From Azolla caroliniana (Eukaryota; Plantae; Polypodiophyta), in contig JBHGNT010000014.1 of assembly GCA_043228905.1 (NCBI GenBank), forward strand, positions 1,612,001 through 1,676,000: a stretch of DNA of 64,000 bases, given 5' to 3'. The notes beneath the pieces were generated by a model. The model worked only from the letters and a program-made list of their open reading frames with translations. It was not told the DNA's origin and did not search any database. The position numbers and the translations under genes were made by a program. Shown here in pieces: positions 6,641 to 56,022 of this stretch (position 1 is its first letter; every line of letters begins with the position of its first letter).

Positions 6641-6817
6641 AATTAGCAATAGTAGTGTTCATACTACAAGGGACATGCTTGAACTATATTCAGGTAAACT
6701 CATCCTAGTCATCTATCATACATACCACCATTGTAACACACATTTTCCAAGTGTTAATACATTTGAGTAATGTTCATTGATTGTTTCCTGATCAGGGGGC
6801 AATATAAGTTTTTGGAA

Positions 6818-9744: not shown

Positions 9745-11031
9745 CTGTTGTCGAGATGTGGTGTGAAAAAGGAGCTACCATGTGTCTGATAATCAGACAC
9801 TCACACTCACATAAATATATGTATATATATATATATATACATACATACATAGTTCCTAATATTTGCATACATCCAATCAGGTAGACATATATGTTTTTTC
9901 CTTTTTTTTTACGAATGAGTTATAGACTTACAACGGTCTACTAAGAAACTCAAAAGGGGCGAATAGGGGGGGAGGCCTCCACCTACGGCTCTGTATCCTC
10001 GCACGCACCATCAACCTCACACCCTCATCCTCATCCTCAGGGTGCGCGACCTCCACTCGCGACCCTCCATCTTGCACTTGCGTTCACTCTCTCGAGTCAC
10101 CCTCATCTTCACGATCTCACTCTCACGATTCACCTTCACAATTTAGAAAAATAAAAATAAAAATAAATATAGACGAATGGATTTAAAGGCTACTTGGAGC
10201 CATTTCACGTATGAGTATGATATGAATATTCACGAATGAGTATGGCACGAATAGGAAGTATGGCTAGAACTATGTATATATATAATAGGTGCAAAGTTCA
10301 CATCTTTGTACATGACGGGAATTAAGAACATTTATTCCCTTTTTCTTTTTCTAAGGAAAATATTTGCATCTAATTCTAAGTTTAGGCGCCTCTTTTTCTA
10401 TAAAAGGAAGAGAAGAGGGCTTATTTCCCATTTTTGGTTTGAGGTATACCATTAGGTGTCACTTCTTTTGGTTTTTAGGAATTCACCATTAGGAGGTTGC
10501 CCATTTTGTGGTTGAGGTGTACCATTAGCTTTCTTTTCCATTTAAACTTGGTTGACTCCCCAACTTTCTTTTTCATTTAAACTTAATCGTTTTCTTCTAA
10601 TCGTTCATTGTATTGCTTCTCGTTGCCACCCTTGTACCTATTCACTATGTACATTTGTATACCCTATTTTATGAAGAGATTTTTTTTTTGTAGTCTAGCA
10701 TTTTCAGCCTAAAAAGTGGCCCTTTTTTTCGGCCTAACATTGTGCAAACCCTTCATAATCTCGTGTTCCTCATGCTAATCGTGTATTTAGATCCTAATCT
10801 CGCATATTAATCGTTGTTCGACTTGTCACTTCCTTAAAATCCTACAAGCCTTTGAGTTTGAGGAGCCATTGACTCTAGAGAGCATTCGATTCTAGAGAGG
10901 TTTCAAGTCTGAAAAGATTTTGACTCCCAAGAGCTTTGTAGTCACCTAACGTCCACACCCTCCTAGTCCTTGTGTCCTCCCTAGTCTAAGACCCCCATTG
11001 CCCCGCTAGAGTAGCACACACACATGTGCGT

Positions 11032-11877
11032 TGTCGTGCCTTTTGGCTCTAGATCGTCGCGTGAGTCGAGTGGGAACCACTGAGGTTTTGGACTAGGAGA
11101 AAGAAGAATATGAGAAAAGGCTAGTAATGAATAGGTAGAAAGAGAGGTAAGTTATCAATCTCATGAATCCCATGAGTTTAGTGTACTTAATCAATATTTA
11201 GATAGTAAGAGACAATTTAGATGACAAATTCGTGAATCCCACGAATGTATTATATTGGTCCTCCTTACAAAATAATCAACAACCAAAAACATCTTTCTCT
11301 CTTCCTTATATAGTGATGGAAGAGGCTAAGCATAGCATCATGATTTCCCTAAAGTGTTCATGCAGGCTAAGTGTGCATGAGTTGCCTCCTCTCAACCATG
11401 CTTTCCATTTCCTAAATATAGTGTTCATGCACGCTAAGCATGCATGAGTAACTTTTCTTTTGTTTGCTTGTTTCTTCTAGATAAAGTTTTCACCCACTCT
11501 AAAAGTGCATGATCTGCCTTCTTGTAAAAGTAGGTGTAAATATAAGTCATATATCACTTATGATAAGTTATTACAATAGTAAAGTTTGGGTTTATTTACA
11601 TGGAGGTACAGGTTCGAATCCTGCCCTATGCATGTAATAATCTTTTCTTCCATTTACAAATTTGTCTCTTTATCCGGTGAGAGACTCTCACCGGCCTTCT
11701 TTATCTGGCTCTTGCCGATTCTACTTGATCCGGTTCTTACCAAGTCTCCTTACCGGGTCCTCCTTGCCGGTTCCTCCTTCATCCGGTTCTCACCGGTTCT
11801 CCTTACCGGGTCCTCCTTACCCTATCTGGAGGGACCAAAATGCAATTTTCATGTAGTGTGAAAATTACACTATGACA
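11032..11877 (-). repeat. Element A 3' LTR
   Basis: Direct-repeat match to 17283-18113; abuts the PPT. Confidence 0.9.
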
Positions 11878-14800
11878 CTCGCCCCCTCCAAACTTGCACA
11901 TCCTCCGGTATGTGCCGAAGTTCCCGATGCCTGTTGTTCGTCTTCATCCGTAGCACTTTCCAATTCCTCCCTTATATCAACTATCAATTGTAGACGGCAT
12001 TCTTCGCTTTCTGCATCACCACAAGCTTTGTCCAATTGCTCCTCGTTGTCGGTCTTGTCTAAGCTTACATAAGATTCTTTGTTAGTCCGTTTCTTGAAAA
12101 TCTTCACCCATTTCCCCGATATAGGCACCCGTTGTACTGTTCCATCCAACTCGCATGGTCGGTAAGTTCCGTTGTCGAAAACTTTCCGAACTTCGTATGG
12201 CCCGAACAACCTTTTCGCGAACTTACGTATCGTTGTATGTTGATGATCCAGACTACTGTTATAGACAATCACCCAATCACCTTCTTCAATCTTTCGCGGT
12301 CGTAGTCGATTGTTTGTGTCGAATCGGCTTTTGTTCCGGAATCGCGCTTCCTGTTGTCGATGTGTTGCTTCCGCTATGTCTTCTGGTCTTCCCTCCAGTT
12401 GTCGTATTCGGACCGCTAGTAGTTCTTCCCGGCTCATCTCTTCCTTCCACGACAACACTGTCCATGTCGCAATTGTGGTTTCCGTCGACATTACCAGTGC
12501 TTGTCCGGTCATGAGTTCGGTTGGCATAAAACCGGTCACAGAACTATGCGTCGTACGATCCGCCCATAGTGCATACGGGAGCATCTGCAGTTAATCCTTC
12601 ACCCTTCCGTTGCATGCTTTTGCAAGTGCTTTGATGATTGGACTATGTCCTCGTTCGATCTTCCTGTTGGCTTCCGGATTGTATGCCGTTGTTAGTGTTA
12701 ACCAAACTCCATATTTGGTGAAGAATCCCCTAGCTTTATCAGAGTCGAGTTCTCCCCGATCCGCAATCACTTGTCCTACGCACCCGTACCTGCAAAACAC
12801 TTCTTCCAAAAGAAATTGGCATACCGTAGAACACGTTTTCCTCCGTAGCGCTCGACCTTCTACTTGGTTTGTGAGATCTTCCTGAGCTAACACCAAGTAC
12901 TTATTTTGTCCGATCTCGGTTGGCATGGCTACAATGTCGACCATCTATTTGAAGTTGATTGTCGGTGAGAATGTTAGATGTAACACATCTCGGTGTCGAA
13001 CCCCGGAGTAGACTTGGCATTTTTCGTAGCTTTCCGTGAACTCCGCGACATCTTTGTACATATTCTTCCACCAATATCTTTGCTTGATCTTCACAAATGT
13101 TGCCCATGTTCCCCGATGTCCAGCCCAATTGGATTCGTGAAATTCAGACATTATCTGGTTTCGTTGCTCTTTTGTCCTGACTACTCGAAGTGGTATGCCA
13201 TCCAGTCTTTTCAACTCCCTCCATATTAATCCATTTTTCAAGAAGAACTTTCGGACTTGCCGCTTCTTACTTCGGATCTCGACTCTCTTCTCTTTATTGT
13301 CCGATGATTCCTCGATTTCTTGTAGCACTTTCCCGATCAACAAGCTTTCTCCCTCGTATTCTTCTTACCAGAATTCTCGGATTACGTTCACTGGGCATAT
13401 GTGCTCCGAAGCAAAGTAGTCTTCGGAAACTTCTTCATTATCGGATTCGGTTATGTCGTCTCCAAACCGCGCCCTTGATAGCATATCCGCTACTGCATTG
13501 TCTTTTGCGGAGATATGTCGTACCTCCGGATTAATTGACTTAACATATGCAATCCACCTTAGCATAGCCACATCTGGTATAGTACAACACTGCATCATCC
13601 CGAGTATCGGAAGACAATCCGTTTCGATCACTACTTCGGCTTCGATCAAATAATCTCGATCCGATTTGATTGCCGACACGACTCCTCATAATTCTCTTTT
13701 GACTTGTGCATACCCGCGTTGCCTTCCACAACAAGTGATAGAGTGGGTCCGCAATATGTGCATAGTGCGGACCCAAGAAACCTTCGGACTTCGGATTGTG
13801 ACTCACATACTTCTTTCATAGCTTGAATCACATCGATCTTGGTTGGTGACGGTCTTCGGCCGTAGGGCCCACATAGATGTTCGACTACCAATATTTCTTC
13901 TTGTCCGAATGCCCATTTCTCTCCGAAAAGTGTTAGGTGCACATCTTCTAACTTTCGTAGCACTTTCTCGCAATTGCGAATATGGTCGACTACGAATTGT
14001 TGGCATCCCCGATCATCCATAGTCTCATCTTTTTCTTCCACCGTGCATCCTTTCATCGGAATGTCATCTAGGAACGTTATCTCCGAAATGCAGTCTCGAA
14101 GCACCTTGTTCATTGCATTCATCATATGTGCGACCGAGTTCGTTGCGCCTTGTGGTAGTGTGCACATACGGACTAATCCTATCGGTGTTCGCATGGTAGT
14201 GATGTCTCGGCTCTCCACGACAAGTTGGAATTGGTCATACTCGGATTATAGGTCTCCGATGGAGTATATCGCGCGTTCGGCAAATGCTTCCGCAAATTCG
14301 TCCACTATCGGACCGACTCCGGAGTTCTGTATCATGACCTTGTTCACTGGTTGCAAATCTTGAATAAACCGGAGTGACCCATTCTTCTTCGGAACTGTAA
14401 ACCATCGATTTGAGTACAGAGCGTTTGATGGCTCTAGAATCCCCATCGCCACCTTCTCCTTGAGCAAGTCGATGACTTTCGGAATATGCACCCGTGGCAC
14501 TGGAGTCGGCTTCAGGTTCCACGACACATGATCAATCGCGAAGATCACCATCAGCTCCACTATCTTCGAATCAACACACCCTATCTCCTTCGATGTGAAT
14601 GCAAATGCTTTTCCATGTTGTTCCAACATCTCACGAAACCGTTCTTCTTCTTTTTGTAAGAGGAAACCACCTCCACCAATCCGAAGTTTTTTCCGGGTCT
14701 CATCCGTGAAGGCATGTCCGATATCCAAGGACTTTTGAAGTGTCGGATCTCCCGAGACTTCTTTCCTCTTTTGTTCGCTATTGGCGGGTAGCAGTCCCGC

Positions 14801-15010
14801 GACCGGTTTCACTTTCTTCTCCACGGTCTTGTATTTCGTACTTACCATTGCTTCTTCTTTGTGGAGCGCATCAGGCCCCATTTTCACAATGATCTCGTAC
14901 ATCTCGACCGATTCCACCGGAACTACCCGGTCTCCCTGGCTATTTTCTTTCGCAAGCTCTTCAATTCGTTGTAGCGTGCTCCCATAGAACACTTCTTCAA
15001 CTACTCCCAC
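11865..15010 (-). pseudogene. Element A RT-RNaseH-integrase, broken by stops, frameshifts and a deletion
   Basis: YSNRWFTVPKKNGSLRFIQDL, TLPQGATNS, FLDD, TDCLP, NAVADMLSR, HESNWAGHRG, ADRGE, AYNPEANRKIERGH, GPYEV. Confidence 0.88.
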
Positions 15011-15162
15011 GATTTCTTCGTCTTCTTTTATTATTGATGCCGACTATAACTTATCCTCTACTTTTTGGTTTTCTTTCTTCATTCCTCTGGTTACGGCTAT
15101 GTACGTAGATGCCCCATCCGAACCGATTCATACTTGTTTTGCTTCGAGAGTTTTCTACCTGT

Positions 15163-15226
15163 GTGGGGTATCAGGGCTTCTTGGACTATCACTTCCCCAC
15201 TATGCAATAGTCTGCTCTAAAAATCC
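15163..15226 (-). promoter_or_regulatory. Putative -1 ribosomal frameshift signal (G GAU UUU, 7-nt spacer, H-type pseudoknot)
   Basis: Heptamer 15226-15220 lies just before the TAG ending Gag-PR. Stems GACUAUUGC/GUGAUAGUC and GUGGGG/CCCCAC. The -1 frame is the RT frame. Confidence 0.7.
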
Positions 15227-17260
15227 ATCTTTGTTTGGGACAAGAGCTCCCTCTTGTTCCTTTCATGATTCACAGGCACAATTAGGAATTGGATGAATTT
15301 CCCTCCGCTTTGACTGCGAATTCGTGCGAAAGCCGCACCGCTATCGAGCACCTTCGTCTCCATCCGTGATGCCGTGATAAAGGGTTGCCTGAGGATCACG
15401 GAGTGTGAGACCTCATCTTGCACGAAGAAATTTTGGTCTATCCCCACATCTCTGATCTTCACCATCAGATCTGGACAAGCTGCAAATAGGTATTTTGTTC
15501 CTTTAATGGCTGCCCGGATCTTCCATCCATGATTAGTGTTAATAGGCCACTTCCCCTTCCAGTAGAACTCCTTGGACATCAATCTGATCTCCGATCCATG
15601 ATCAATCAATGCTAGCACGGGCTCTTTGATGTTGCCGATTCGGACCGGAGTCTCCGTAGTTGCACGTGCCCAATGTGACCTTGTGTAGTGGGAGTTCGGA
15701 ATTTTGTCCTCCAATTCGGTGTCATTCATTAAAACGGTATTTGCATCCACCCTTGGAGCATTTTCATCCGTACTTTGTCTTTTTCTCTTCATGAGATCCA
15801 CAAGAAGATCGTGGAACTCCTTCTTCGCTATTCCGAGTAATTCCCGAAGCGAAAATTCTACCCGGCTATCGAGGATTCTCTCCTCGAACACCTTTTTCAA
15901 GTCCGTTTGTTGTTCGATGTCCGAGGCGAGCTTGAATGCTGGAATCTTCTTTTCTTTTCCCTTCCCTCTGGAGTTCCAACTTTCTGGTGTCTTTGATAGT
16001 CCAACCGCATCATCCATGCATCGTGGTTTCTCGTCAATATACACTTCATGCAATTGACATAAGGCGTACACACTATTCTTATTGATGGGGCACTCCCATC
16101 CCGTAGCTTCATGGATGCCTTCCGAGGTGCTTTGGATCTCATTGGAGTCGGTTTTCTCGGGGTTTTCTAGCACATCCGGCCAAAAAGACGCCTTTGCTCC
16201 CGATGACTCACCCACTCTTATTCCCGCGGTTGTCGCATAATTACCTTTTGCCGCTATTTCCTCCTCTAGGACCTTCTTCATGCCGCCTTTCCGGAAGTTC
16301 GGTCAGAGTGGCTTCCGAGAGTCCATCGAATGAATCTGATTTCCCTTAGAGTAGATAAGATTCCGTCGTAGCGCCTCGTGCTCGTCGCAATCCCTCTGAT
16401 CATGTTCGGTGCTATTGCACCATATGCATCGACGGTCCATATACTTGGAACTTGTGGGACGGTCATCCGATTTCTTCACCATTGCGATTTTCAGATTCTC
16501 CATCTCCTTCAACAACTGCTCCACCGTGGTTGCATCGATTCCCTTCTCGGTCGTAGTCTCCCGAGCCCATGGTTGATGGTCTTCCAATCCGGATCTCGAT
16601 TTTGGAATCGGTTCTGAAACCCTCTTTTCTTCGTTAGCCAGCCATTGCCCCCTCTTTGTATATCGTGTGACGATATCTCGCAGGTTATCCCATGTATCGG
16701 TGAGGCCACCCTCGGTGGTCGTGTCCTCTAGAAGCACTCCAAGATCTTTCCGGTCCTGGACGTCCATGGCTTGTAGGAACATGATCACTATGTCCGGTGC
16801 GAGGATAGCTTGATCTCTCGCGAACAACCTTCCGAACCGACTTTCGAATGCCGAAAACACATCGAGGACCTTCATCCCCTTGTCCGGCGTTTCCACCCAA
16901 TCTTCGAATCCTCTCCTCGTTGCCTTGGAGGAGTCCTCGATGGCGAATGTGTTCTTTAAGGCCTCTTCAAATGCTTCCCATGTCGGATTCAATTGTTGTA
17001 TCCCGTGGATACTCCCTTGAAGATCGTCGGTTGCCACCCGGTTGAAGGATGTCACTTGTAATCCGCACCGTAGTATTTCCGCCTTGTAATCTCGCAAATA
17101 CCGTGACACATCTTTCCCATTGAATTGCCCGTTCCGTTGCACGAGCCGCTCTACTGCCGCCGCAATCTCCGACATCGCGCGTTGTTCTTGTAGCATCCGT
17201 TCGAACATCGCCATCATGTTGTTAGCCTCTGGTTGAATTTCCATCTCCTTGCCACCCGGT
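15217..17260 (-). pseudogene. Element A gag-protease (one reading frame with one internal TGA)
   Basis: GQFNGKDVSRYL gag motif, CIWC..TEH...C knuckle, ALIDHGSEI protease site. ORFs 16303-17331 and 15217-16281 are in the same frame. Confidence 0.85.
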
Positions 17261-17278
17261 TTCACGTCGGGTTCACCA
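17261..17278 (-). promoter_or_regulatory. Primer-binding site complementary to the tRNA-Trp 3' end (element A)
   Basis: TGGTGAACCCGACGTGAA is the complement of TTCACGTCGGGTTCACCA, the 3' end of plant cytosolic tRNA-Trp. Confidence 0.85.
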
Positions 17279-17282
17279 CTTG

Positions 17283-18113
17283 TGTCATGCCTTTTGGCTC
17301 CAGATCGTTGCGTGAGTCGGGTGGGAACCACTAAGGTTTTGGACTAGGAGAAAGAAGAATATGAGATAAGGCTAGTAATGAATAGGTAGAAAGAGAGGTA
17401 AGTTATCAATCTCGTGAATCCCATGAGTTTAGTGTACTTAATCAATATTTAGATAGTAAGAGACAATTTAGATGACAAATTCGTGAATCCCACGAATGTA
17501 TTATATTGGTCCTCCTTACAAAATAATCAACAACCAAAAACATCTTTCTCTCTTCCTTATATAGTGATGGAAGAGGCTAAGCATAACATCATGCTTTCCC
17601 TAAAGTGTTCATGCAGGCTAGGTGTGCATGAGTTGCCTCCTCTCAACCATGCTTTCCATTTCCTAAATATAGTGTTCATGCACGCTAAGCATGCATGAGT
17701 AACTTTTCTTTTGTTTGCTTGTTTCTTCTAGATAAAGTTTTCACCCACTCTAAAAGTGCATGATCTGCCTTCTTGTAAAAGTAGGCGTAAATATAAGTCA
17801 TATATCATTTATGATAAGTTATTACAATAGTAAAGTTTGGGTTTATTTACATGGAGGTACAGGGTTCGAATCCTGCCCTATGCATGTAACAATCTTTTCT
17901 TCTATTTACAAGTTTGTTTCTTCATCCGGTGAGAGACTGTCACCGGCCTTCTTTATCCGGCTCTTGCCGGTTCTGCTTGATTTGTTTCTTACCAGGTCTT
18001 CTTACCAGGTCCTCCTTGCCGGTTCTCACCTGTTCTCCTTACCGGGTCCTCCTTACCCCATCCGGAGGAACGAAAATGCAATTTTCACGTAGTGTGCGAA
18101 TTACACTACCACA
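17283..18113 (-). repeat. Element A 5' LTR
   Basis: Match to 11032-11877; PBS adjacent. Confidence 0.9.
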
Positions 18114-19456
18114 ACGTTGTCGCGTTGTTACGCGCATGCGTGTAGAAGGGCGGGACCATGAGGGTCTTGGACTAGGGAGTAGAGGAGAAAGAATAAGACA
18201 CAAAATGGAAGCTTAGCTCAAGAGGAGGTGAGAAAGAATAAGACAATAACATAGAATAGATGGGGCAAGATGCTCAACAAGTTAGCTTAAGGAAACATAA
18301 ACGCTTTACAACGGTGGCAGCCATGGCCGCGCCAAACGACTATAAGAAAACCCTAAAGGAAAACCCAAGAAGAAAACCCTAACCGAAACCCTAAAACCGA
18401 ATAGGAAACCCTCGACCTAAGTGGTATGCCTCTCTCCCTCAAAATAGGCAATCCCCTCATAAGTGACCCCTCCCTTCTTTTTATAGCCCAAGGAGGGAGG
18501 GACCTTACAATGTGGGATAAAATTTCCTCTCTTATTTCTATACACCATTTCCTAGTATACATGTGCACATGGTGCACACCACCGATTTGCCTATTCTACC
18601 CCGGTTTCCGCCTATGGACGAAAATCTTCACGACATCCGCCCCCACCAAACCGCACATCCACCGATATGTGCCAAGAAAGGAGAAGAGGTGAGATTTTTC
18701 GGCCATGGTGATAAAACCGAGGTCCGTCGTGTCCTCGTTGGCCTTGCTCGGCTTTGTTTCCATTTCGAGCACGCCCGTCTGAACCGTCGTAGCATCCCGT
18801 TCCACCGTATCCGTCGCACGTCCTCGAGCCACGGCTCCAACCGATCCACCACGTCCACCGTGTGTCCCCGAAACATTGACTCCATCCGAACCGCCATATC
18901 CACCGCACGCGCCTTCCTCCCCGGTCGGTCCTCCCGAACGCCATTGCCAATCCGGTCACTCTTACTTTGTCCGCAATGTAGGTCCTCCGATTAGACCTTC
19001 GGTCACCCCGTTTGCTCGCCGGCTTCCGCCCCCCGCGTACCGCTTGTGTTCTATCTCTGGCTCGATCCTCTCTTCGTCTCGAACACCTCGTGCCGATTCC
19101 CTCCGTTCCGCGCTCACCTTCCGTAGGCTCTTTCCGTGTGCCCTTGTTGTCTCCCGAACATGCGCTCGTTCTTTGGTCCCTCGGCGACCTCATTACGCGC
19201 TCCTTGCTTCTCCTTTGCTCTCCGTGCTCTCTCGCCGTAGAGCATACCATCATCCCGACCACCATGTCAGCGTCCTTTGCGACTCCCGTTACCGCTTCAT
19301 CCCGACTCTCGTCCTCTTGGCCCGCTTGGCCTCGCATGCCTTTCGGGACGCCGTGCTTCCTCTTCCCGGCGTGTAGCCCATTGCTCTCCACGCACCTCCC
19401 CTGGTTCTCAAGACATAGCCTTTCATGCTCGCCGATCATCCGCCCATACCGGCACC

Positions 19457-22408
19457 TCACCGCTTCGTCTCTCGCCACGTGCATTCCTCGCAAAGGCTCG
19501 TATGTCCTCCGGGTGCGCTCCCGATCTCTCTGATCGCACTCCGGATTCCGCCATTTTCGTGCCGCGTATGTTCCTCCTTTGGTTTTATCGCCTCCACATG
19601 CCAAACACCTCGGTGTGTCGACTCTTCCCCCGCTCCGTGCTTGCCTTCCGTAGGCTCTTCCCGTGCGCCGATGTTGTCCCCCGAATATGCGCTCATTCTT
19701 TGGCCCTTAGGTGACCCCATTATGCGCACCTGGATTCTCCCTTGCTCTCCGTGCTCTCTCGTAGTAGAGCGTACCGTCATCCCGACCTCCGTGTCAGTGT
19801 CCCTCGAGGCTCTCGTTACCGCCTCGCCTTGACTTGCGCCCTCTTGGCCCGCCTGGCCCGCTTGACCGCACACATCCTTTGGGATGTCCTGTTTGCTCTT
19901 CACAGTACGTGACCTTCTGTTCTCCACGCATCCCCTCCGTTTTCCCAGACACAATCCTTCGTTCATGCCGATCACGCTCGTCTCGTTCTGTCGATCTTGG
20001 CGTCTCGTCGCACCGTCCGTCGTCCCGCGCTTGCCTCTCGAAGGCTTCCTCCGACCGTCATCGTCGGTCACTCGTTGCGGCTCCTCCGAATGCACGTTTG
20101 CTTCTTGGCCCTTCGCTGGCCGTAGTGCATGCTCCGTTTTACGCCGTAGTGCATACTTCATATTACGCGCCTCATCCACCGTAGACTTGACCTCCGCGTC
20201 GGCCACTTCTTCCTTTGTCGCCGTAGCCCGTTCCGACTCGGGCTCGCCATCTTGGACCCGCTCATCCATCATCTCATACCGGATACCCGTTCAAATAACT
20301 TTGTCCGCTTCGGCCTCCGACTCCTCGCCGCCACCCACCGTCTCTCCGGTCTCACGTTGATCCGCAACCGTTGAAGTCTCTAGAATGGGTGTGGAAGGTC
20401 CCTCTCGCTCTCGGTCTTCCACCAAGCCGTGATCACCGTGCCCGCTAGGCCTCCTCAATACGCTCACCGGCTCTCGTCGCGTGTTGTGACCCGTCCTCCT
20501 CGATCTCCAATCGGACCGGCATAGCCTTCGCCCGGATCGGTCTCGACCGATCGTGATCCGGTTCGGTCTTCTCTCTTTCACAATTGTCACCGGCCGAACG
20601 ATTCCGAGCTTGCCGACTCTTCTTCGGTTTGGGCCCGGTTCGCCGGCCCTCGCTCCATTCTTCTTTCGTGCCGTCTTCCGGTCGTGTCGGTTCCCAACTC
20701 TCCCCTTTCCACTCATGACCTCTCCGTCGGTCCTCTCGTATATGCCCGTTCCGGGCCTCGCATCCTCATCTTCGTACGTACTCGCTCTGAGCCACGCCTC
20801 CTCACGGCCGCCGCCCATCTCTCCGGTCTCACGTTGGCACTCGGGCACAACCGCTGAAGTCTCCGGCCCCGGTGTTGAGGGGTCTTGCCTCCGTCTGCTC
20901 CAATCTTCCTCGTCGTCATTTCGGTCACCCGCCTTGCCGTCGCCACCGCCCGTCGCTCTAGGCCACACGCCGACACTCAGGCCGACCGCCGGAGCCTCTA
21001 GGACTGCTGTGGGTAAGGTCCCGACACCTCCGCTCGTCATTGCTGTAGCCGCCTCCGTCCGGACGTCGTTGTCCGTGGCTCCCCCATCTCCGATTCCGCA
21101 AGCCTCGATTATGCTTGCCGCCCCTTCTTCCTCACTTTCCTTTCCATTGTCTTGGTTGCCCTCCTTGTCGTCGCCACCGCCTGTTGCTCTAGGTCTCACG
21201 TCGGCACTCAGGCCGACCGCCGGAGCCTCTAGGACCGGTGTGGGTAAGGACTCGACACCGCCACTCGTTTCGTTCGTAGCCACCTCCATTCGGTCATCGT
21301 CGTCCGTGGCTACCCCATCTCCGTTTACGCTTGCTGCCACCTCTTCCTCGTCGTTCTCGCTGTCGTGGTTGCCCGGCTTGCTGCCGCCACCGCCCGTCGC
21401 CCTAGGTCTCATGCCGGCACTCGGGCCAGCCGCCGGAGCCTCTAGGACCGGTGTGGGTAAGGACCCGGCACCGCCGCTCGTTGTGTCCATAGCCGCCTCC
21501 GTTCAGACGTCGTTGTCCGTGGCTAACCCGCCTCTGATTATGCAAGCCTCAATTATGCTTGCCGCCTCCCCTTCGTCATCGTTTCGGCCACCCGCCTTCC
21601 CGCTTGATGTTTTGGGCCACCGTGCCCCAAATCCTCCGCCCACTCTCGAAGTGGCGCTTCCCGCTCCGTAGTCATTGGCCTCATCCATGGTTGTCCATTC
21701 GCCACAAGATGAGAGGGTCGCTTGCTCCAGACCCTCTCCCATGTCGCCGTTGCACGCTCTTTCAGCCTCAACATAGGCCCCGTCCTCCACGCGTAGGGAC
21801 GCTTCTTCCTCCGCATCCCTCGATCCGCTTGGGCCCAACTCCGTAATAAGCCCTTCCTCGGCTTTGAACTTCACCTTCACGCTCTCGCACGCCTCCCATA
21901 CCAATGCCTCGAAGTCGTACTCCTCTGGTTCATCGCGTGTCAAGCTCTTTTCCGGCGGTGGTGTGTAGCCACCCACCGCCCTCTCTTTTCCGTCGCTTGC
22001 GGGCCAAGTCGTTGCCGACCGCTCCCCATCATATTGCCGGCATACCCACTTTGGTTTCGCGTATTCGTATGCCTCCATTAGAGCTCCCTTGAAGGACTCC
22101 CACGACTCATGAGCTTCTTGAAGCTCCTTGACCTCTTTATGCACCGATACGGCCGCCACTCGACGAAAATACTCTAGCCCCATCGCTTCGTCCACGCCCC
22201 ACTCCGTCATCTCGGCATCGTACGCTTCCAAGAACCTCGGGACATCGTCCCCGTTGAATCGGCCGACTCGATCGACCACCCTCTCGAAGGCTTGTTGAGC
22301 CGCATCTCGCCTCGCCTTTTTCCTTCGCGCATCCATTACGATCTTTGCCATCATCTCCTTGAAGTCGAAGTCTTCTTCCATCTCCGTCCTCCCTTGCCGC
22401 CTCTTCAC
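19457..22408 (-). pseudogene. Element B gag N-terminus fused to a long repetitive low-complexity extension (one frame, two internal TGA stops)
   Basis: VGRFNGDDVPRFLEAYDAEM aligns to the gag of A and C. ORFs 21503-22408, 20291-21490 and 19457-20272 are all in the same frame. Confidence 0.75.
20900..21600 (-). repeat. Coding tandem repeat in element B (about 3 units of 60-80 codons: ..TSGG.G.LPT.VLEAPA.G.S...PRATGGG..)
   Basis: Repeated peptide in ORF 20291-21490; repeated cggagcctctaggac at about 20990, 21221 and 21434. Confidence 0.85.
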
Positions 22409-24607: not shown

Positions 24608-27600
24608 ATGGCTTCAACTGTAGATCGATTAGTGAGTGCGCGTGAAGGCACATGCGCGCTCAATAGGGCTATTGACGCAATCGTCGGCACGATAGGCCGG
24701 TTTGGTGGAAAAGATGCCACGAGCTACTTGGAGGCCTACCGAGCCGAAATGGTGATGAGGGACATTCCGGAAGACAGGCGACTAGCCGGATTCCCTGGGG
24801 TGGTGATGTCGGGCTTCCACGCGGAGGTGCTTGAGGTACGGTCTAAGACCCGGACCTGGGAAGAGTTTGAAGGTCGGCTTCTTGAGAAATACGGGCTTGA
24901 TGACGCGCTTCGGCTATTGAAGCGGGACTTCATGGAATGGGTGGAGACCCCCGAAAAGGGGAGAAACGTGTTGGTTCTCCTCCGGGAGTTTGAAGAATGC
25001 TTCGTGCGTCTTTCGGCGTTGGACCGGACCGTACTGGACACAAGTCATGTCCTATTATTTGTTAAATCGATGGACGTGAGGGACCGGGAGCAAGTGGGCC
25101 TCCTGCTGGAGACCGATGACGGGCTAATGGCCGATTGGGCCGTGGTGAAGAGAGTCTGCGGCTGTTTCGACAAACAGCGTGAGTGGGTAGATAAAGGCTC
25201 ATTGGGGGCGGGCTTTGTTGTGGCAAGGAAGCTCGAGGTACCCCCACCGGCACGAAGGGAGGAGACCTGAGGCTGGCTCGACTTCGATCGGCGTGGTCAA
25301 AGGCCCGTCTGGAGGAGCGGCTCTGGAGGAGCTGACTCAGATGGTGAGGGACCTCAAGATTGCACAGGCACGAAGGGACGGCGGCGAACTAGCCCGTGAC
25401 CAAAGGCATCAGGCTAGGCATCGGTGCTTGTGGTGCGACGCGCTCGGCCATGCCTGAAAGGACGGCGGGGACTTCGCCGAAGCGATAAGGGCCAACGTGG
25501 TGTACTTGTGGAATGGGCGGTTACATGCTAGCGAAACCCGGAGGGCCCTGGATTTGAACGTCAGATGAGGGGGGATGAAACGGCTGATGAGGAAGCGGCG
25601 GCTCGCCACGCAGAGACCATCCACTACTCAGCGTCGGCGGGAATCTGGGTGGGGAGTGATGAAGTCCGGAAAACAAAGGACTCCGGGTTCTGGCCGTTGA
25701 TGCTGGAAGGCCTAACCGGCGTATGGCTAAGGAAAGAGGAAGCGGACTACGCGGGAGAAGGGTCTGGGAGGTAACTGGGTGGAGTAACCCGGTCAAAGAG
25801 AAGACAGGCTTCGTGGAAGCCGCGTGCCAAAACTACGAGGTTCTGGTGGAAGACAAGCGCGCGGGAAAGACCAGGGGGGCTGGACCCTCACAAGGGTATG
25901 AGACCCGTTTCGGGCCGAAGCAGAATGATGTCGGTGCATCCGGCGCACCGGACAAGACTAAGAAGGCCAGTTACTGGTTGAACATAGAGATCGAAAGGAC
26001 CACGGACCTACGAAAGGTCCTGGAGGAACGGATCCTCGAGAACAAAGTGGAGTTGTCGCTGAGGGAGGTGCTCGGTATCGCCAAGAAGGAGTTGCACGAC
26101 TCCATTGTAGACTTGGTGAAGCGGAAAAGGCTTTCGATGAAGCCGGAGCCGGAGAAGCCGGTGGAGGTGCGAACGACGCACCTAGAAGACATGGCCCTGG
26201 AAGACGAGTTGGCGGAAAGCCACTACTCGAGGCTACATTGGGCTAGGGCCACTACGGAAACCCCTGTTTGGATCGGGGACGTCCAGCAGCCGGTGGTGGC
26301 ATTGGTAGACCACGGTTTAGAGGTAAACTTGATGTCCATGGACTTCTACAAGAAGGGAAAGTGGCCAATCAACACCAAGCACTCCGGAACGATAGTCAAG
26401 GCATGGGGACGTGATAGTTAGGACACTCCGGAAAAACCCCACACATGTACAATAGGCAGAAGAACCTGTAACATAGGTAGGAAGTTTTGGTTCTCCGACA
26501 GCAGAGGTTGTACAATAGCCGGCGTCGTTGGCCGGGAGAAGAAGCGGGCAGAAGAGCGACTCAGGGCATGCAGAGTCCTCGTCCCTGAAGAGGAAATTGG
26601 CGGTGCCGTGGAGGCGGTCTCCTTCGATTACACCTTGGAGGAATTATGTGAGGTTGTCGAGGGAGGCCTTAGTGAAGACCGATTGATTCTGGTATGTTTG
26701 GAAAAGATGTACGGAGTCATCACCGACTTCGGTAGAGGACTCGAGTCGGATCGGACGATCCGAGTGGATACGAAGTACAAAACTATGGACCAGAAGGTGC
26801 GACCAGTCGCGGCACCCTTGCCGGAGGGCAGCGAGTTACGGATGAAAGGGGTCGCGTCAGACCCAAGTTTACGAGATCCGGCAGGCATAGGACACCGATT
26901 CACCGACATAACGCTACAAGAGCTCAAGGTCGGTGGGGGTGGCTTTCTACTGCCTGCGGAGGAAGACCGGTTTCGGAGAATGCTCAAGAGGCACGGAAAG
27001 GCCTTCGCATTCTCGTTGGAGGAGATCGGGTTTGGAGACCCGATGATTGTGGAACCAATGGTGATCTTCACGGTACCGCATGTACCGTGGAATCTCAAAC
27101 CGAATCCAGTACCCAGAGCTCACATCCTGAAGCTAATGGAGCTACTGAAAGATAAGGTGGATATGGGCATCCTCAAACCGTCGGGTGCCCCGTATTCTAA
27201 TCGGTGGTTTACCATGCCCAAGAAGAACGGCACACTGCGCTTCATTCAAGACTTGCAACCGGTCAACAAGGTGACCATTCGGAATGCAGGAATCAGACCG
27301 ATCATAGACGAGTTGGCGGAGGCCTTCGCCGGAAGGTCAATTTACTCGGTCGGTGATCTGTACTCGGGATACGATCAGTTCCAGCTAGCCGTGGAGAGCA
27401 GGGACATTACGACGATGCAGACTCCTCTCGGCCTAGTACAGATGTGTACCCTTCTGCAAGGAGGGACGAAATCGGTAGCCCACATGGTGAATGCAATGAA
27501 CAAAGTGCTAAGGGATTGTATCCCGGACATCACCATGTCATTCTGAGACGACATCCCGATCAAAGGATACTCGGTGGAGGATCAGGATGAGACAATCGGA

Positions 27601-29852
27601 CCGGACGGATGCCGGAAGTTCGTGGTGGACCACGTCGATGACTGCGAGAAGGTGCTGCAAAGACTAGAGGGCGCGAGGCTCACCTTCTCCGGGGAAAAAT
27701 CGGCCTTTGGGCAATCGGAGATCATGGTCGTCGGACACCTATGTGGGCCAAGATAGAGGTCATCTCCGCGATGAAGCGCGACTGCAAATCGGTCATAGAA
27801 GTCCGGAGATTCTTGGGAGCATGCACGTTCTACCATATCTGGATCCCGCATTACGCCCACGTCGCGGAGCCGCTCTATGGATTGCTGAAGAAAGGGCGTA
27901 AATTCAAGTGGTGGGAGGACCATACAGAGTCGATCCGGAAAATGAAAGAAGCACTTGCTGCGGCGCCGACACTCCGGAAAGTGGTCTACGGTAAAGACAT
28001 TCCGATTTACGTGACCATAAGCACAAGTTCGACCGGAATCAGATGGGTGATCAACCAGGAGGATGAGAATGGCACGAGGTTCCCCATTTGGTTCGGCGCA
28101 AAAGTCCTCAGTGAACGACAGCGAGGGTACGCCCAGGTTAAACACGAACTTTGGGGTATCGTTTCGGTGGTCAAGGCCGACAAAGACTACCTGATCGGGA
28201 TGGAGGTGATAATCGAGACGGACTGCCTGTCGATTCTCGGTATGGTTTCTGGATGCGCGACGCCGGACCTGGCAATGCTCAGGTGGATAGCGTACATCAA
28301 GTCCCTGAATCCGGAAATACGACACATTTCCGAAAAGGACAACGCCATGGCCGACATGCTTTCGAGGGTGAGATTCGATGATGAGGACAACATGGTTTCG
28401 GAGGACGAAGAAGTCAGCATGGACTTCTTTGAGACGACTTACATAACAACAAGGAAGAGGATCACTCCGGCACTTAACGAGTTTGACGAGAGCAAGTACG
28501 ACGGGGAGTGGCTCTAGATTGGCGGGTTCCTGAAGACAATGACACCGAACGTGGCTTGGACGAAGGAAGAGACCAACCAGATTTGGAAGAAAGCGTACCG
28601 ATTCTTCCTATGGGATGGGTGCATATGGAAGCACCCGAAGAAGAGAAACGGCATCCCGCTCCGGGTTGTGGCGAAGAAAGAGGAACAGGTGGAACTGCTG
28701 ACGGCGTACCACAAGAGTCCTTGGGCCGGACACTGCGGGATGTGGGCCACATTCAAGAAGTTGAAGGGGAAGTACTGGTGGCCGGGACTATACCGGGACA
28801 TGCATCAGTTCGTGACGGCTTGCAAAAGCTGTCAGATGCACTCCATAGTTCGAGATCGGGACGAGCTCCACCCGACCTACCCTCCGACCGTCCACTTCAA
28901 CTGGATGGTGGATCTGGTGACGATGCCGATGGGGGTAGGGCAGATGCGATATCTGGTGCTGGCTTGGGAGGACCTGACGAACCAGGTGGAAAGTCGAGCA
29001 TTGCCGAACACAAAGACCGCGGATGTGTGCCGATTTCTGATCGAAGAAGTGGTATGCCGGTACGGGTGCGTAGGAAAGATCGTAGCCGACCGTGGAGAAC
29101 TGGACACACAGGAGGTTGAAGAGTTGTTTGACTGGCTAGGGGTTAAACTCTCGCTCACCACGGCATACAATCCGAAGGCAAACGGGAACGTGGAACACGG
29201 ACATGGGACGATCGTCAAAGCGTTAGTGCGGGCATGTGGAGGCGAAGTCGGAAATTGGCTGCGGCTCTTATCCTATGCGTTGTGGGCCGACCGAACTACG
29301 CACAGTTCGGTAATCAGGTTCATGCCAACGGAGCTGATGTACGGGAAGAAGCCATTCATGCAAATGGAGCGAACGATCTCCTCATGGGCCACGGTGGATT
29401 GGAGAGACGAGATGAGCCGGGAGGAGTTGTTAGCGGTGCGGATCCGACAGCTTGAGTGAAGACCAGAGGATGTGGAACGAGCCGCGGAAAAGCTGCGGGC
29501 CGCGAGGGTAAAGAACAAGGGGAGATTTGATCGGACTCACTGACTAAGGTCGAAGAAAATCGAGGAAGGCGACTGGGTTCTGGTATATGACAGTAGCCTC
29601 GACAACCAGCACAAGGCGTTGCGGAAGTTCACAAGGAGGTGGTTCGGGCCTTACATGGTGACAAGCGCCAACGACAACGGGACCTACCATCTCGCGGAGC
29701 TTGACGGGACGAGGATGGCAGTACCGGTGGCCGGGAAAAGGATCAAAGCGTTGAAAAAGCGGCACGAGGATGAACCGGAACCGGACCCGGACGACTTGGA
29801 TAGTGAGGACGACTGGTTCGGAGCGATTGGCGATCCGGAGGACGAAGGGTAA
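24608..29852 (+). pseudogene. Element C gag-PR-RT-RH-INT, fragmented
   Basis: GRFGGKDATSYL, ALVDHG, YSNRWFTMPKKNGTLRFIQDL, DLYSGYDQF, TDCLS, ADMLSR, ADRGE, RRWFGPY; multiple stops and frameshifts. Confidence 0.88.
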
Positions 29853-29910
29853 GCGTGGGCCGGTCTTCTCCGGCAAGAGTCTATTTTGGCGCATACCGAT
29901 GGATGCGCGG

Positions 29911-31435
29911 TGTCGCGAAAATACGATGAGGATACGTGAACGTTGAGGCAAGACCCCAGGGCCTTTGACTAAAGGATATCAAATTCGTGTATTTATGTAC
30001 TAAGAATTAACTGAAATGAGAAAGATTAACAAATTTCATTAACAAGTAGAAAGAAAGATTACAATTAATCCCAAGATTGGGATTACAAAAAGTTTGCTAA
30101 TGGAGATGGCTAGAGTAATAGATTAGAGGAAATTAAGATATGAATTCTATAGAAAATTAGGGTTTTTGGCTTTGATAAGAGATTATGGTTTTATGAGTTG
30201 AATAGCTTCCGTATGGAAATTTAGGGTTATGAGTAAGATATGGCTTCCGTAAGGAAATTAGGGTTTACTTGAGAGATATGGCTTCGATAAGATAGGGGAG
30301 TTAGGAAGGAAAAGAAAAACAATATAATATATGGAGAGAGCATGAGTGTAGGAAGAAAATGGAATTTTATATGGAGTTCTCCCTTGATCATCTGCATGTC
30401 CACCTTTTGTTGCATGGCCTCTGCTTTTAGTTGCTTAGCTTTTTCTTTTAGTTGCATCGCTTTTTCGTTTAGTTGCATGTGACGGTCCACATGACCTTTA
30501 CTTTTTGCATGCACTCCAACTTTAGTTGCTTGCGTCCACATGACCTTTACTTTAGTTCTCTTCACTTTACTTTAGTTTGTTGCATGATCCAATCTTCCGT
30601 CCGTCCGCGTCCAACCTCGTCCGGTAGCCAGTTCCGCCCGATCACCGAATCCCTCGCCAACCGGTTCCATTTTGCTTGCCGGTCGGTTCCGGTTTTGCTT
30701 ACCGGCTGGTTTCTGGATTTGCTTACCGACCGGTTCGGTTTTGCTTGCCGGCTAGTTCCGGTTTTCTTGCGGGCCAGTTCCGGTTTGCTTGCCGGTTCCG
30801 GTTTTGCTTACCGGCCGGTTTTTGGATTTGCTTATCGACTGGTTTCCGGATTTTTACCGGCCGGTTCCGGTTTGCTTGCCGGCTTGTTCCGGTTTGCTTG
30901 CCGGTTCTAGTTTTGCTTACCGGCCGGTTTCCGATTTTGCTTACCGGCCGGTTTCTGGATTTGCGTATCGACCGGTTTCCAAATTTGCTTACCAGCCGGT
31001 TTCCAGATTTGCTTGCCGGCCGGTTCCAGTTCCGGTTCCGGTTTGGTTGCCGGTTCTAATTCTAGTTTGCTTGCTGGTTCCGGTTCCGGTTCCGATTTTG
31101 CTTACCAGCCGGTTTCCGGATTTTGGGAACTTGGCCACCATCATCCATCAAGACAAAGTGGTCAAAGTGCTCTTAGCACAAATGAAAAATGAGGGAGCTC
31201 AAGGTGCTTATATAGACAGGGCCTTAACTTTCCTATCTATGTGGGATAGTTCTAATTTCCCTATTTTTTCAAACTTCATTTTCACATAACTTGATATGTA
31301 TTTCTCCATTTTGTATTTAGTAAAATACGTTTTGAAGTTCTTGAGTATATCCATCTTTCTATAGTAAGCTACTAATCTAATCTATAATAATTATTTCATT
31401 ATTTTTTTACATAGTGTGTGAAGATTCACACGACA
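29911..31435 (-). mobile_element. 1525-bp solo LTR of the same Gypsy lineage, inserted just upstream of element C's PPT
   Basis: TGTCGCG..CACGACA ends; TSD GCGG/ACGG. Removing it restores ggatgcgcggttaggtgggggcgga, which matches element B's pre-PPT sequence. The right end resembles the A LTR end; orientation is inferred from that. Confidence 0.8.
30655..31125. repeat. CCGG-rich minisatellite inside the solo LTR
   Basis: Many degenerate units of ccggttccggt(t)ttgctt(g/a)ccgg. Confidence 0.9.
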
Positions 31436-34400
31436 ACGGTTAGGTGGGGGCGGATGTCGTGGAGAAAACCGTCCCTAGGCGGAATCGGAGAATGATGTGT
31501 GCGAAAAGGCCCTTACATGTGGGCACAAGTTTTGTTGTAATGTACATATTCAGATACAAGTCGGCTGATGTGAATATCCTAGGTTGCACAGATTTGATAG
31601 GTAGGAGATCGAGGCATATCTCTGTCCTTTCGGATAGAGAATAAAGATGATGTAATGGCCTCCCTCCTTGGGCTATAAAAGAGAGGGAGAGGAATGGGAA
31701 AAGGGGATCACTTTTGTCGAGGACGAAGTGCTGTCGGACTGGGACCGAGCTCTTCTCCTCCGTCTTTCTCTGTATTTGCTCTGTGCAGGTTTTCGGGAGG
31801 CTAACTCTACCCCGTGGACCACCCGAGTGCTTTCGGAAGAGTCTCCATCTTGCTCTTCTGTGTGCGTGTGCATAGGCATACGAGATTTGTCGCTCACTGG
31901 CCTGTTGGTTGTAACCCCTTTTTCATCAGAATATATATGTACACATACGATTCATCTCGTTTCCGTTGTTTCATTCGGTTGCGGTTTCTATGTATCTGTG
32001 TGTGTGCGTGTGGAAGCGCGGCCGTTGTCTTTCTTGCTCCTACTCCTGATCTATTATTCCTCGGTCCAAGACCCCCTGTGGTCCCGCCTTGTTCTATACG
32101 CACGCACGTAACAACGCGACACCGGATGGTCGAAGACAAGGCCAATTAGTTAAGCCGACTGGGCAATTGACATAAGAGTCGGTTACTCGAATCGACTAGT
32201 CGACCAGTCGGTTGATTAATTGTTACTATTATTAGTATAATAGTAGAAATGATAGTAGTAGAGGCTACATTTGTATATAGCCCATAATGTGTATAAGTAC
32301 AAATACACTTAGGGCAATCGTGTAAAATAGTAGATATAGATTACAGTTTCTGTAGTTGAGAGTTGTAGAGTATAGAGAGTGTGTGCGAGAGAGCGGCGAC
32401 AAAGTTCAGTGAACCTGTCAAGAACCCTAAGTGGTTATCCTCTGAGTATCAGAGAAGAGTTGTAACCATTCTTTGTACTCTCTGTCATATAGTGGAAGAT
32501 CTGTTCTCTCGTGGTTTTCCCCTTTTAGGGTTTCCATGTAAAACTCTGTGCATATTGTGTATTGTGCTGTTTTTTCTGTTTCCGCATGTTTTGTCGTTCA
32601 ACATATCTTTCGTAGATCGATGATATGTTTTCTAACACAACTCATTTCTTCCATTGGAGAGGAACATAAAATCAACATACTCCTTTTCATAATTTTGTAT
32701 TTCTTTAGCCAACCTTCCTCATCTCACAAGACCCCATGTGTACACCTGTTTACCATAAATAGGATACAAAATTCTCAACATCCTTTTCCAAACTGCTCTA
32801 GCAATAGGACATACCCATAAGACACGGTGAATTGATTCAATGGGAAAACCACAACTATCATTTTAAATCATCACAATGGCCTCGCATCCATGACTTCACA
32901 GGAATGCCATAATGTACCAACAATCATCTAAACAATACAACTTTTTTAGGAATTTGCATGGCCCATAGCCATTTCCAATAAACATCCAACCAAGAGTCTT
33001 GTACATGACCAAATCTCCAAAATTTACAAGCTGCTGGCGTGACAACCACACCCCTCAGCAATTCTCTACCTTTTTACTGAATACTAAAAAAATGGGATTT
33101 TCTTACCTACCATTCCTTGCGCTAATATGATTTGCCATTTCCACTCAACGAGATCCCACAAAAGGTGATTAATGAGCTTATTGTCATAGACCCACAATTT
33201 AGATAAACTATTTATATCATTTGGATGTGAATTCCACATCCATTTTTTATCGTTCTTCCACAATATATGAATAGGCAACATACTCCCTTGATTTACAACT
33301 TCGTCTTCCATAAAGAGAGAATGAAGCTGTCTAGAAGGCAAAACATTGAAATAAAGACATCCATGAGAGTTTTTATAACCGATGACCCCCCAACAAGACA
33401 TGTAAGGATGAAAACATACCATACCAAAATAGACTAATTTGAGAAAGCTGAAATGAAGACATTGTAAACACTATCCATTTATGTATACATAATGTTCCCA
33501 CCCCAAATTGTTCTACCAACATGGGTTTTGTTTTCCATTGTCGAGAAGAAAAAGTCAACAAATTCTTTACTGACCCAACTTCTCCTCTATCAAAATCAGC
33601 CCACTTCAACCTAGTTCTGTTCCCTAACATTACCCCCTTCTCTAATAAAAATAGTGTCTTCATTATGAGGGGTTGGCGCAACCATTCACCCATCCATGAT
33701 TGTAGTGATTGGACCAAGTTATGTTTCAAATCCCTGATACCCCTAAAAAACTTATCCTAGTAAAAAATATCAATGGAATGATTAAAATCTCTTAAAAACC
33801 ACCATCTAATATTATCTTTCCAATTGCCACCTGTAGAAGGCATAATCTTAACCATTCTTTGCCTTAAGATTGTTTTCCATGGCTCCCCACTTGGCAACAA
33901 GCCTCTTATAATTAATTTTCCCAAAAAAGCCTTACATTGTAAAAGAGGATCAATCAATCCAAGACCACCCTCATCCTTTGGAGTTGTAATAACTTTCCAA
34001 GATACTTTAGCTCTTACATATGAACAATCTTTAGATCCCTACCATGTTGTAGGGGTCGTCAGCCGGTACATGTCAAACCCAGGACCGAGGCATTGGGATG
34101 CCGTCAAACACATCTTTAGGTATCTGAGAGGAACCAAGGACGCACAACTGGCTTTCAGATCGGCCAATCCGACCAAAGTCGAAGGCTATACCGACTTCGA
34201 CTATGCCGGAAATACGGATAATCGGAACTCAACATTAGGCTATCTTTTCACCTATGGCGGTGGTGCCATATAATGGAGATCAAAGCTTCAAGATTGCATG
34301 GCCTGTTTACCACAGAGGCCAAGTACATAGCAGCATCAGAGGCAATGAAGGAAGCAATCTGGCTACACTGACTGTCTACCGATTTTTTGGCTACAAGTCA

Positions 34401-34756
34401 AATCAACCACCTAGCACCGACCATCTATTGCGACTCTCAGTGTCACGGATCATAAACTCAAGAGACAACGAAGAAGATAACCAAATGGACAAGAAAGAAT
34501 ATAGTACTAAAGGAAAGACTCCATAACTGGTGTTGTTCACCTTGAATTCCTTCAAGGTGAACTCCTCTATTTATACTACATGGCATGCATACTTGTTGCA
34601 CGCATGTGAATCTACAATAGAGCATGTAGGTATGCATGCATGTGCCAAGTGTAAATACTACAAGGGAGCAACTATGCACATGATGCTAGCAAAATAATAA
34701 GGAACAATTACATACATAACTAGTACTAGATATCTTGGTTAACTCATAATAGTAGA

Positions 34757-38284: not shown

Positions 38285-38289
38285 GGCTC

Positions 38290-39306: not shown

Positions 39307-39343
39307 AGCTATGGCTTATGAGAGGGAGAGCTATGAGGATGGG

Positions 39344-39354
39344 AAGGTGAACAA
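39344..39354 (-). promoter_or_regulatory. Self-priming PBS (TTGTTCACCTT), complementary to the predicted transcript 5' end
   Basis: Complementary to AAGGTGAACAA at 39459-39449, which starts 32 nt after the first T of TATAAATA (39491). Confidence 0.75.
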
Positions 39355-54344: not shown

Positions 54345-54652
54345 CCTCCTTCCATGCTTGCACCTCAAGCTCTGATACCAGTTTGTTGAGAATCGATTAA
54401 AAAAACCACAAGATCAAACGATGCTGAAAATATACAACACATGCACACAATGACACAGTACACAAAGATTTACGTGGAAACCCTAAAATGGGAGAAAAAC
54501 CATGGGAGAGTAAGCTTCACTATACAGTGGATATACAAGACAGAGATTACAACACTCTTTCTGAGTGTATCACCCTCACAGGGTTCTTGGCGTCTGCTAT
54601 TACGGACACAGCTATGGCACCGCTCTCTCTCTCTCTCTCCCTCTCTCTCTCT

Positions 54653-55913: not shown

Positions 55914-55978
55914 CTCTTTCTCTCGTGTCTCTCTTGCACACACTTCTATATGTCGTCGCACTTTCTATGTTTTCCCTA

Positions 55979-56022
<44 letters not shown>

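What the first reader, a model, noticed from the sequence alone, without database searches (positions are those of the whole stretch)
11028..32125. A tRNA-Trp-primed Gypsy lineage that appears to integrate at CG dinucleotides (4-bp NCGN target duplications)
Seen: all four insertions of this lineage have 4-bp TSDs with CG in the middle. A has GCGT(11028-31)/ACGT(18114-17), B has ACGT/ACGT(22944-47), C has CCGG(24262-65)/CCGG(32122-25), and the solo LTR has GCGG(29907-10)/ACGG(31436-39). The four other LTR elements here with clean TSDs have ordinary 5-bp TSDs without CG (CTCAG, CAAGG, GTTTT, CCTCC). Known: plant LTR elements usually make 5-bp TSDs with little sequence preference. Inference: this integrase, which has no recognisable chromodomain, centres its staggered cut on CpG, possibly methyl-CpG. 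In an AT-rich genome that would steer insertions into CG-rich TE DNA. Caveat: only three independent sites, and two TSD pairs have one mismatch.
Basis: partly seen in the sequence, partly recalled or inferred. Interest (0 to 1): 0.8.

Follow-up and report, generated by a model that had tools for sequence, protein, structure and literature searches.

The report
Fern Phygy retrotransposons inserting at CG
These jumping genes, from a plant that is likely a fern, almost always land in the middle of a CG base pair step; the habit is real, but it is already described for the moss lineage Phygy, to which they most likely belong.

Summary
All four 4-bp duplications are at the stated coordinates with CG in the middle; the four control elements have 5-bp duplications without CG. 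Empty sites fix the length at 4 bp for two sites. In related public contigs, 51 of 56 independent LTR-end flanks have CG at positions 2-3 against a 3.8% background; ACGT dominates, and T at position 1 and A at position 4 are avoided.

The claim is not new. Neumann et al. 2019 (PMC6317226) report for the non-chromovirus Gypsy lineage Phygy a 4-bp NCGN duplication in 100% of 186 elements, mostly tRNA-Trp primed, with no extra domain. Phygy has also been reported in ferns. These elements match that profile and have Physcomitrium, Riccia and Adiantum homologs; a tree with a reference Phygy sequence could not be built.

Methyl-CpG reading is untested and unsupported. Small additions: a V-CG-B motif, a near-invariant glutamate at the integrase position that contacts target DNA in foamy virus (81 of 86 homologs), and repeated insertion at the lineage's own LTR ends.

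The parts
11028..11031 (.). Left target duplication of A (GCGT)
11032..18113 (-). Element A: Gypsy, Gag(DUF4100)-PR-RT-RH-INT, broken by stops and frameshifts; LTRs 17283-18113 (5') and 11032-11877 (3'), 793 of 830 bases identical
17262..17278 (-). Primer binding site of A, 4 bases after the LTR end; tRNA-Trp by recall
   Evidence: tRNA identity recalled, not confirmed
18114..18117 (.). ACGT shared by A (right duplication) and B (left duplication): B inserted into A's duplication, head to tail
   Evidence: order inferred from LTR identities
18118..22943 (-). Element B: non-autonomous partner of the C family; LTRs 22426-22943 and 18118-18635 (500 of 518 identical), same U5 end, primer site and purine tract as C, a weakly Gag-like reading frame near 21506-22384, no pol
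   Evidence: (P0354 hit, 24%, E 5e-5)
22944..22947 (.). Right target duplication of B (ACGT)
24262..24265 (.). Left target duplication of C (CCGG)
24266..32121 (+). Element C: Gypsy, Gag(DUF4100)-PR-RT-RH-INT at 24662-29765, broken by stops and frameshifts; 5' LTR 24266-24537 (internally deleted), 3' LTR 31455-32121; primer site 24542-24558
28518..29765 (+). Integrase of C: H2C2 zinc finger, core with D-R-G-E at the second catalytic aspartate, SH3-like GPY/F tail, no chromodomain
29907..29910 (.). Left target duplication of the solo LTR (GCGG, the ancestral letters as shown by the B paralogue)
29911..31435 (.). Probable solo LTR of a further family, inserted 15 bases before C's 3' LTR
   Evidence: lineage membership only weakly shown
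31436..31439 (.). Right target duplication of the solo LTR (ACGG)
32122..32125 (.). Right target duplication of C (CCGG)

Best explanation
These are Gypsy LTR retrotransposons, most likely of the Phygy lineage in a host that is likely a fern, whose insertions duplicate four bases with CG in the middle, probably because the integrase itself selects that CG step while bending the target. Shown: 4-bp duplication, V-CG-B preference with ACGT commonest, no chromodomain, no extra RNase H. Established for retroviral integrases with a 4-bp stagger: the target is sharply bent at a central pyrimidine-purine step, and T and A are disfavoured at the edges of the duplication (foamy virus consensus VYRB). 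Inferred: this lineage has narrowed that shape rule to CG by base-specific contacts; candidates are the glutamate at the position of foamy virus Ala188 and the conserved basic loop before the GPY/F motif. Methylation is not needed in this model. Because the elements and their LTR ends are CG-rich, copies tend to land in each other, giving nests such as A|B and the solo LTR inside C. The two mismatched pairs are likely later G-to-A decay of the base next to the LTR's terminal CA.
For: Phygy profile: 4 bp (100%, NCGN), tRNA-Trp 81%, no extra domain, n = 186; stated in the text as the one exception among plant lineages; Phygy reported in ferns and a liverwort. Host gene's best named hits are ferns. 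Ten of the 120 listed Gag-protease homologs are Physcomitrium patens proteins, 36-51% identical to A; RH-integrase of A and C fall in one clade with Riccia elements (SH-aLRT 99), far from chromoviruses. Flanks: 51 of 56 CG; ACGT 21 of 51 (6% expected), T at position 1 in 0 of 51, A at position 4 in 2 of 51 (34% expected each). In runs holding the window's own family, 47 and 42 contigs continue through ACGT and 34 and 18 through ACG before diverging. Shape rule: PMC4422553 passages. Glutamate aligned to PFV Ala188, present in 81 of 86 covered homologs.
Against: No reference Phygy, Selgy, Athila or Tat sequence was in the tree, and the tree is the quick one. A (7,082 bp) and C (about 6.7 kb without the solo LTR, allowing for the deleted LTR part) are shorter than the moss range of 7,656-9,968 bp. 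The tRNA-Trp label is recalled. In foamy virus Ala188 touches bases three positions outside the cut, not the centre, and an acidic residue there stops strand transfer in RSV integrase, so the glutamate may not read the CG. Five of 56 flanks lack CG. The G-to-A explanation shows only a trend in the flanks (G at position 1 in 4 of 51 against C at position 4 in 10 of 51, p = 0.15).
Confidence: 0.8

Rival explanations
1. The integrase prefers methylated CG, so that it reads DNA methylation directly and takes the place of a chromodomain in sending copies to silenced DNA.
For: No chromodomain. At least 18 of 56 flanks contain repeat sequence. Three of the five exceptions are TG or CA at positions 2-3, the decay products of methyl-CG (p = 0.02), though that can follow insertion. 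A paper title on CpG methylation affecting retroviral integration in vitro was seen in a reference list only. Phygy is enriched at centromeres in one liverwort.
Against: No methylation data were available. The A/B site lies 2.7 kb from a host gene in CG-poor DNA. Drosophila ZAM-group elements target CGCG in a host that, by recall, lacks CpG methylation, so CG selectivity can exist without it. [quoted passage not shown]
Confidence: 0.12
2. The elements belong to a different or unnamed sister lineage (for example TatI, also 4 bp and tRNA-Trp) that shares or has converged on the CG target.
For: No direct reference in the tree; sizes below the moss range; TatI has a 4-bp duplication and tRNA-Trp in 75% of 4 elements.
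Against: TatI is defined by an extra archaeal-type RNase H; none was found in the reading frames of A and C of 150 aa or more or in three full-length relatives (one sub-threshold RVT_3 score lies on the ordinary RNase H). Selgy uses tRNA-Ala. Moss homologs exist.
Confidence: 0.07
3. The CG in the duplications is chance or a result of misplaced LTR ends.
For: Only three independent sites in the window, two pairs with one mismatch; TE DNA is CG-rich.
Against: 51 of 56 independent flanks, with no other offset above 5 of 56; empty sites give exactly 4 bp; control elements show 5 bp without CG.
Confidence: 0.01

Closest known systems
Phygy (non-chromovirus Ty3/gypsy lineage, REXdb; Neumann et al. 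2019, PMC6317226; read: passages and Additional file 5 in full)
   Same: 4-bp NCGN duplication, tRNA-Trp primer (label recalled for these copies), Gag-PR-RT-RH-INT without chromodomain or extra RNase H, coding region filling nearly the whole interior, non-seed-plant host, homologs in Physcomitrium patens.
   Different: Host is likely a fern rather than moss; elements are shorter than the moss range; a non-autonomous partner (B) and a finer V-CG-B motif with ACGT preference were not mentioned in the parts read.
TatI (OTA/Tat; PMC6317226 Additional file 5)
   Same: 4-bp duplication, tRNA-Trp primer.
   Different: TatI has an extra RNase H and about 9.1 kb; no NCGN motif is given for it.
Drosophila ZAM-subgroup errantiviruses (PMC5408687; read: passages)
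   Same: Gypsy-group elements with a sequence-specific 4-base target centred on CG (CGCG).
   Different: Different clade, env-bearing, AGT-type LTR ends; only 1 of 51 sites here is GCGC and ACGT dominates.
Prototype foamy virus and other 4-bp-stagger retroviral integrases (PMC4422553; read: passages)
   Same: Central pyrimidine-purine step, T and A avoided at the edges (VYRB); PFV integrase is the closest solved structure by sequence (E 4e-16).
   Different: Their preference is weak (about 63% enrichment of YR); here one YR step, CG, takes 91% of sites, and a glutamate replaces the small residue at Ala188.

Membership tests
Phygy | RT/RH/INT phylogeny: member of the non-chromovirus clade defined from Physcomitrium patens | tested here: inconclusive
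   Clade with Riccia elements, outside chromoviruses; P. patens Gag-PR homologs 36-51% identical; the REXdb sequence file could not be read, so no labelled reference was in the tree.
Phygy | 4-bp target duplication with NCGN | tested here: met
   4 of 4 in the window, 51 of 56 flanks, length fixed by empty sites.
Phygy | Primer binding site for tRNA-Trp | tested here: inconclusive
   A conserved TGG-starting 17-base site follows the 5' LTR in A, B, C and in 13 of 72 loci; its match to plant tRNA-Trp is recalled; searches found no tRNA to compare.
Phygy | Gag-PR-RT-RH-INT order, no chromodomain, no extra RNase H, no extra ORF | tested here: met
   the integrase tail scores only as a weak Tf2-type SH3 (E 0.003-0.009).
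Phygy | Size 7,656-9,968 bp in moss (descriptive, called insignificant for classification by the authors) | tested here: not met
   A is 7,082 bp, C about 6.7 kb without its nested solo LTR.
TatI | Extra archaeal-type RNase H | tested here: not met
Chromoviruses (Tcn1, Galadriel and others) | Chromodomain at the integrase end; chromovirus clade | tested here: not met
   PF00385 found only in the control element at 34441-39709; A and C are 22-24% identical to chromovirus RH-INT and distant in the tree.
Selgy | tRNA-Ala primer, about 5 kb, variable duplication | tested here: not met
   NCGN-fixed duplication and larger size; the primer type is recalled as Trp.

The most novel reading that the evidence does not exclude
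Phygy integrase is a direct methyl-CpG reader: with an acidic residue at a target-contact position where retroviral integrases keep a small one, it finds methylated CG without a chromodomain and homes on the CG-rich LTR ends of its own kind, building self-nesting islands.
Probability: 0.12. Interest if true: 0.7.

Novelty: new member of a known kind. Interest (0 to 1): 0.27.

Why it matters
The CG target of Phygy is on record as one sentence and a table cell; its mechanism was not found in the searches made. This locus confirms the rule in a second plant group with a count, refines it to V-CG-B, and names a residue to test. A near-strict dinucleotide choice is unusual for a plant LTR integrase and would be a clean model of how integrases gain sequence specificity. 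If it depended on methylation, it would be a new route to heterochromatin targeting. As it stands it extends a known property.

Tried and rejected
No whole genome is held for the window, so no genome-wide logo from the host assembly and no genomic CG background. The records behind the loci could not be extended, so the 56 flanks are single junctions, not pairs; a search for LTR starts within 600 bases gave only spurious matches. No relatives in viral contigs. The protein atlas returned only generic integrase clusters. Cluster look-ups gave no organism names. Three attempts to confirm the primer tRNA failed: no tRNA in the window, no paper with the motif, 31 of 31 viral matches were chance and none lay in a tRNA. 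The moss TE paper PMC7466625 (passages) has no target-site data; PMC8282616 and PMC13469084 (passages) only list Phygy. PMC6911290 (passages) confirms mostly 4-bp duplications for Phygy and nesting into Tcn1, with no palindrome excess. No earlier findings of the scan matched. Contig depths were not used as copy numbers. Dropped before the count of 56: 5 chance matches with no LTR similarity, 13 junctions leading into the primer site, 3 duplicates, from 77. A two-LTR-circle origin for the head-to-tail junctions was rejected: such a junction should carry the TATT/TCTT spacer rather than ACGT, and A and B are different families (inference). Additional files 1 and 3 of PMC6317226 (per-element duplications, reference proteins) could not be read and may already hold the finer motif.

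Full report
Observation. A (11032-18113, minus strand) and C (24266-32121, plus strand) carry Gag-protease-RT-RNase H-integrase in Gypsy order, broken by stops and frameshifts. B (18118-22943, minus) shares its U5 end, primer site and purine tract with C but has no pol; it is a non-autonomous partner with a weakly Gag-like frame. A and B share the ACGT at 18114-17, so the window gives three independent sites. The four control elements have 5-bp duplications without CG; one is a chromovirus and at least two are Copia. The solo LTR resembles A only in short terminal stretches, so its assignment is the weakest.

Length of the duplication. Two empty sites fix it at four bases. Where the solo LTR sits in C, the paralogous stretch of B has a single GCGG, which also shows that the right-hand ACGG is the changed copy. 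For C, 9 contigs in run X2 and 12 in run X8 join the left flank directly to the right flank over one CCGG. Both mismatched pairs have G on the left and A on the right, next to the LTR's terminal CA. This is a CHG context and fits later decay of a methylated cytosine (inference); in the larger set the same trend is not significant (4 of 51 against 10 of 51, p = 0.15).

Test on more sites. No genome is held. A scan of public metagenome contigs with a 19-base LTR-end pattern gave 77 loci, most with LTRs 65-90% identical to B or C. They come from related families and perhaps a related species. After removing 5 chance matches, 13 junctions into the primer site and 3 duplicates, 51 of 56 flanks have CG at positions 2-3, against 3.8% in the same flanks (p about 1e-66); no other offset exceeds 5 of 56. 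Three of the five exceptions are TG or CA. Against the NCGN words in the flanks, ACGT is enriched (21 of 51, 6% expected), T at position 1 is absent (0 of 51) and A at position 4 rare (2 of 51), 34% expected each. Four U3-side junctions in the same loci also have CG, one of them shared with the count above and one resting on a 17-base match. Runs that hold the window's own family agree. The majority letters after C's LTR begin ACGT in three of four runs (24, 25 and 28 contigs; the fourth, 6 contigs, is led by primer-site joins). At B's end 47 and 42 contigs run through ACGT and 34 and 18 through ACG, while the 30 and 28 that break at the LTR end read mainly as primer-site joins (52 rows were not shown).

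What it is. The host gene at 6767-8341 has its best named hits in ferns. The integrase region has many relatives in public contigs and in the liverwort Riccia. The Gag-protease region finds ten Physcomitrium patens proteins among 120 listed, and Adiantum proteins. A quick tree of RNase H-integrase puts A and C in one clade with Riccia elements, far from chromoviruses; it holds no labelled Phygy, Selgy or Tat sequence. No chromodomain or extra RNase H was found. Neumann et al. 2019 (PMC6317226; passages and Additional file 5 read) state that Phygy is the one plant lineage with a target preference, NCGN. They list for it a 4-bp duplication in 100% of 186 elements, tRNA-Trp in 81% and no extra domain. 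One passage of PMC13477047 reports Phygy in ferns, and PMC12885004 reports it in a liverwort. A search for NCGN with retrotransposon found no other relevant paper among 3 hits. The tRNA-Trp label for these copies is recalled; searches did not confirm it. Sizes fall below the moss range.

How it likely works. Retroviral integrases that cut with a 4-bp stagger bend the target sharply at a central pyrimidine-purine step and disfavour T and A at the edges; the foamy virus consensus is VYRB (PMC4422553 passages). The motif here, V-CG-B, is that rule narrowed to one step. Narrowing to CG over CA, TG and TA needs base-specific contacts (inference). The integrase aligns to foamy virus integrase with a glutamate at Ala188, kept in 81 of 86 covered homologs and absent from the five most distant. 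Retroviral enzymes keep a small residue there, and an acidic one stops RSV strand transfer (PMC4005685, one passage). That makes it a candidate, but Ala188 contacts bases outside the duplication, so the link to CG is unproven. A conserved basic loop before the GPY/F motif is a second candidate. Nothing here tests methylation. Steering into TE DNA is at most passive so far: TEs are 2.5-5 times richer in CG than the DNA between them, at least 18 of 56 flanks hold repeat sequence, but local CG density is flat and two window sites lie in CG-poor DNA.

One unexplained pattern. Insertions recur at the lineage's own LTR ends: A|B in the window and L020 are head-to-tail joins over ACGT, L049 and L053 are hit at the same ACGC 16-20 bases inside the U5 end, L010 about 45 bases inside a U3 end, and the solo LTR 15 bases before C's 3' LTR. 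That is 4 of 56 loci plus two in the window. Without copy numbers I cannot say whether it exceeds what CG-rich ends would attract.

Verdict. The feature is real and well supported, but it is the published signature of Phygy: new member of a known kind, interest 0.27. The methyl-CpG reading remains open at about 0.12.

Noticed in passing
window 18114-18117; L020, L049, L053, L010: Insertions at or within about 50 bases of the lineage's own LTR ends, including two head-to-tail joins over ACGT; possibly more than CG richness explains.
   Followed up: partly
window 17279-17282, 22422-22425, 24538-24541; 13 loci: A 4-base spacer (TATT, TCTT or CAAG; 5 bases in one locus) lies between the 5' LTR end and the primer site, longer than the 2 bases recalled for most retroviruses; it may mean a longer 3' processing step.
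   Followed up: no
window 18636-22425: Interior of B is 57% GC, has internal repeats and a long acidic low-complexity frame after a Gag-like start; related interiors occur in L031 (83%) and L066 (72%), so it is a family of non-autonomous elements.
   Followed up: partly
window 34441-39709: Very young chromovirus: identical 353-bp LTRs, 1,183-aa pol frame with chromodomain, CTCAG duplication.
   Followed up: partly
window 45112-50368: Young Copia with a 1,374-aa open frame and 99.8% identical LTRs, nested in an older Copia (43280-56237).
   Followed up: partly
window 57309-58334: Decayed RNase H-integrase fragment of the same lineage (79% identical to A), joined to a Copia fragment near a CCGA at about 57285; ends not resolved.
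   Followed up: no
window 54648-55910: About 1.3-kb insertion in the right LTR of the older Copia, with a 324-aa frame that has no Pfam match; possibly a LINE 3' fragment.
   Followed up: no
window 6767-8341: Single-frame host gene for a glutaredoxin with GRXCR-type C-terminal domain, 2.7 kb from the A/B insertion site.
   Followed up: partly
window 30661-31125: CCGG-rich tandem repeats inside the solo LTR; similar short CCGG-rich repeats occur in A's LTR and in a Copia-type LTR at 53586-53821.
   Followed up: no
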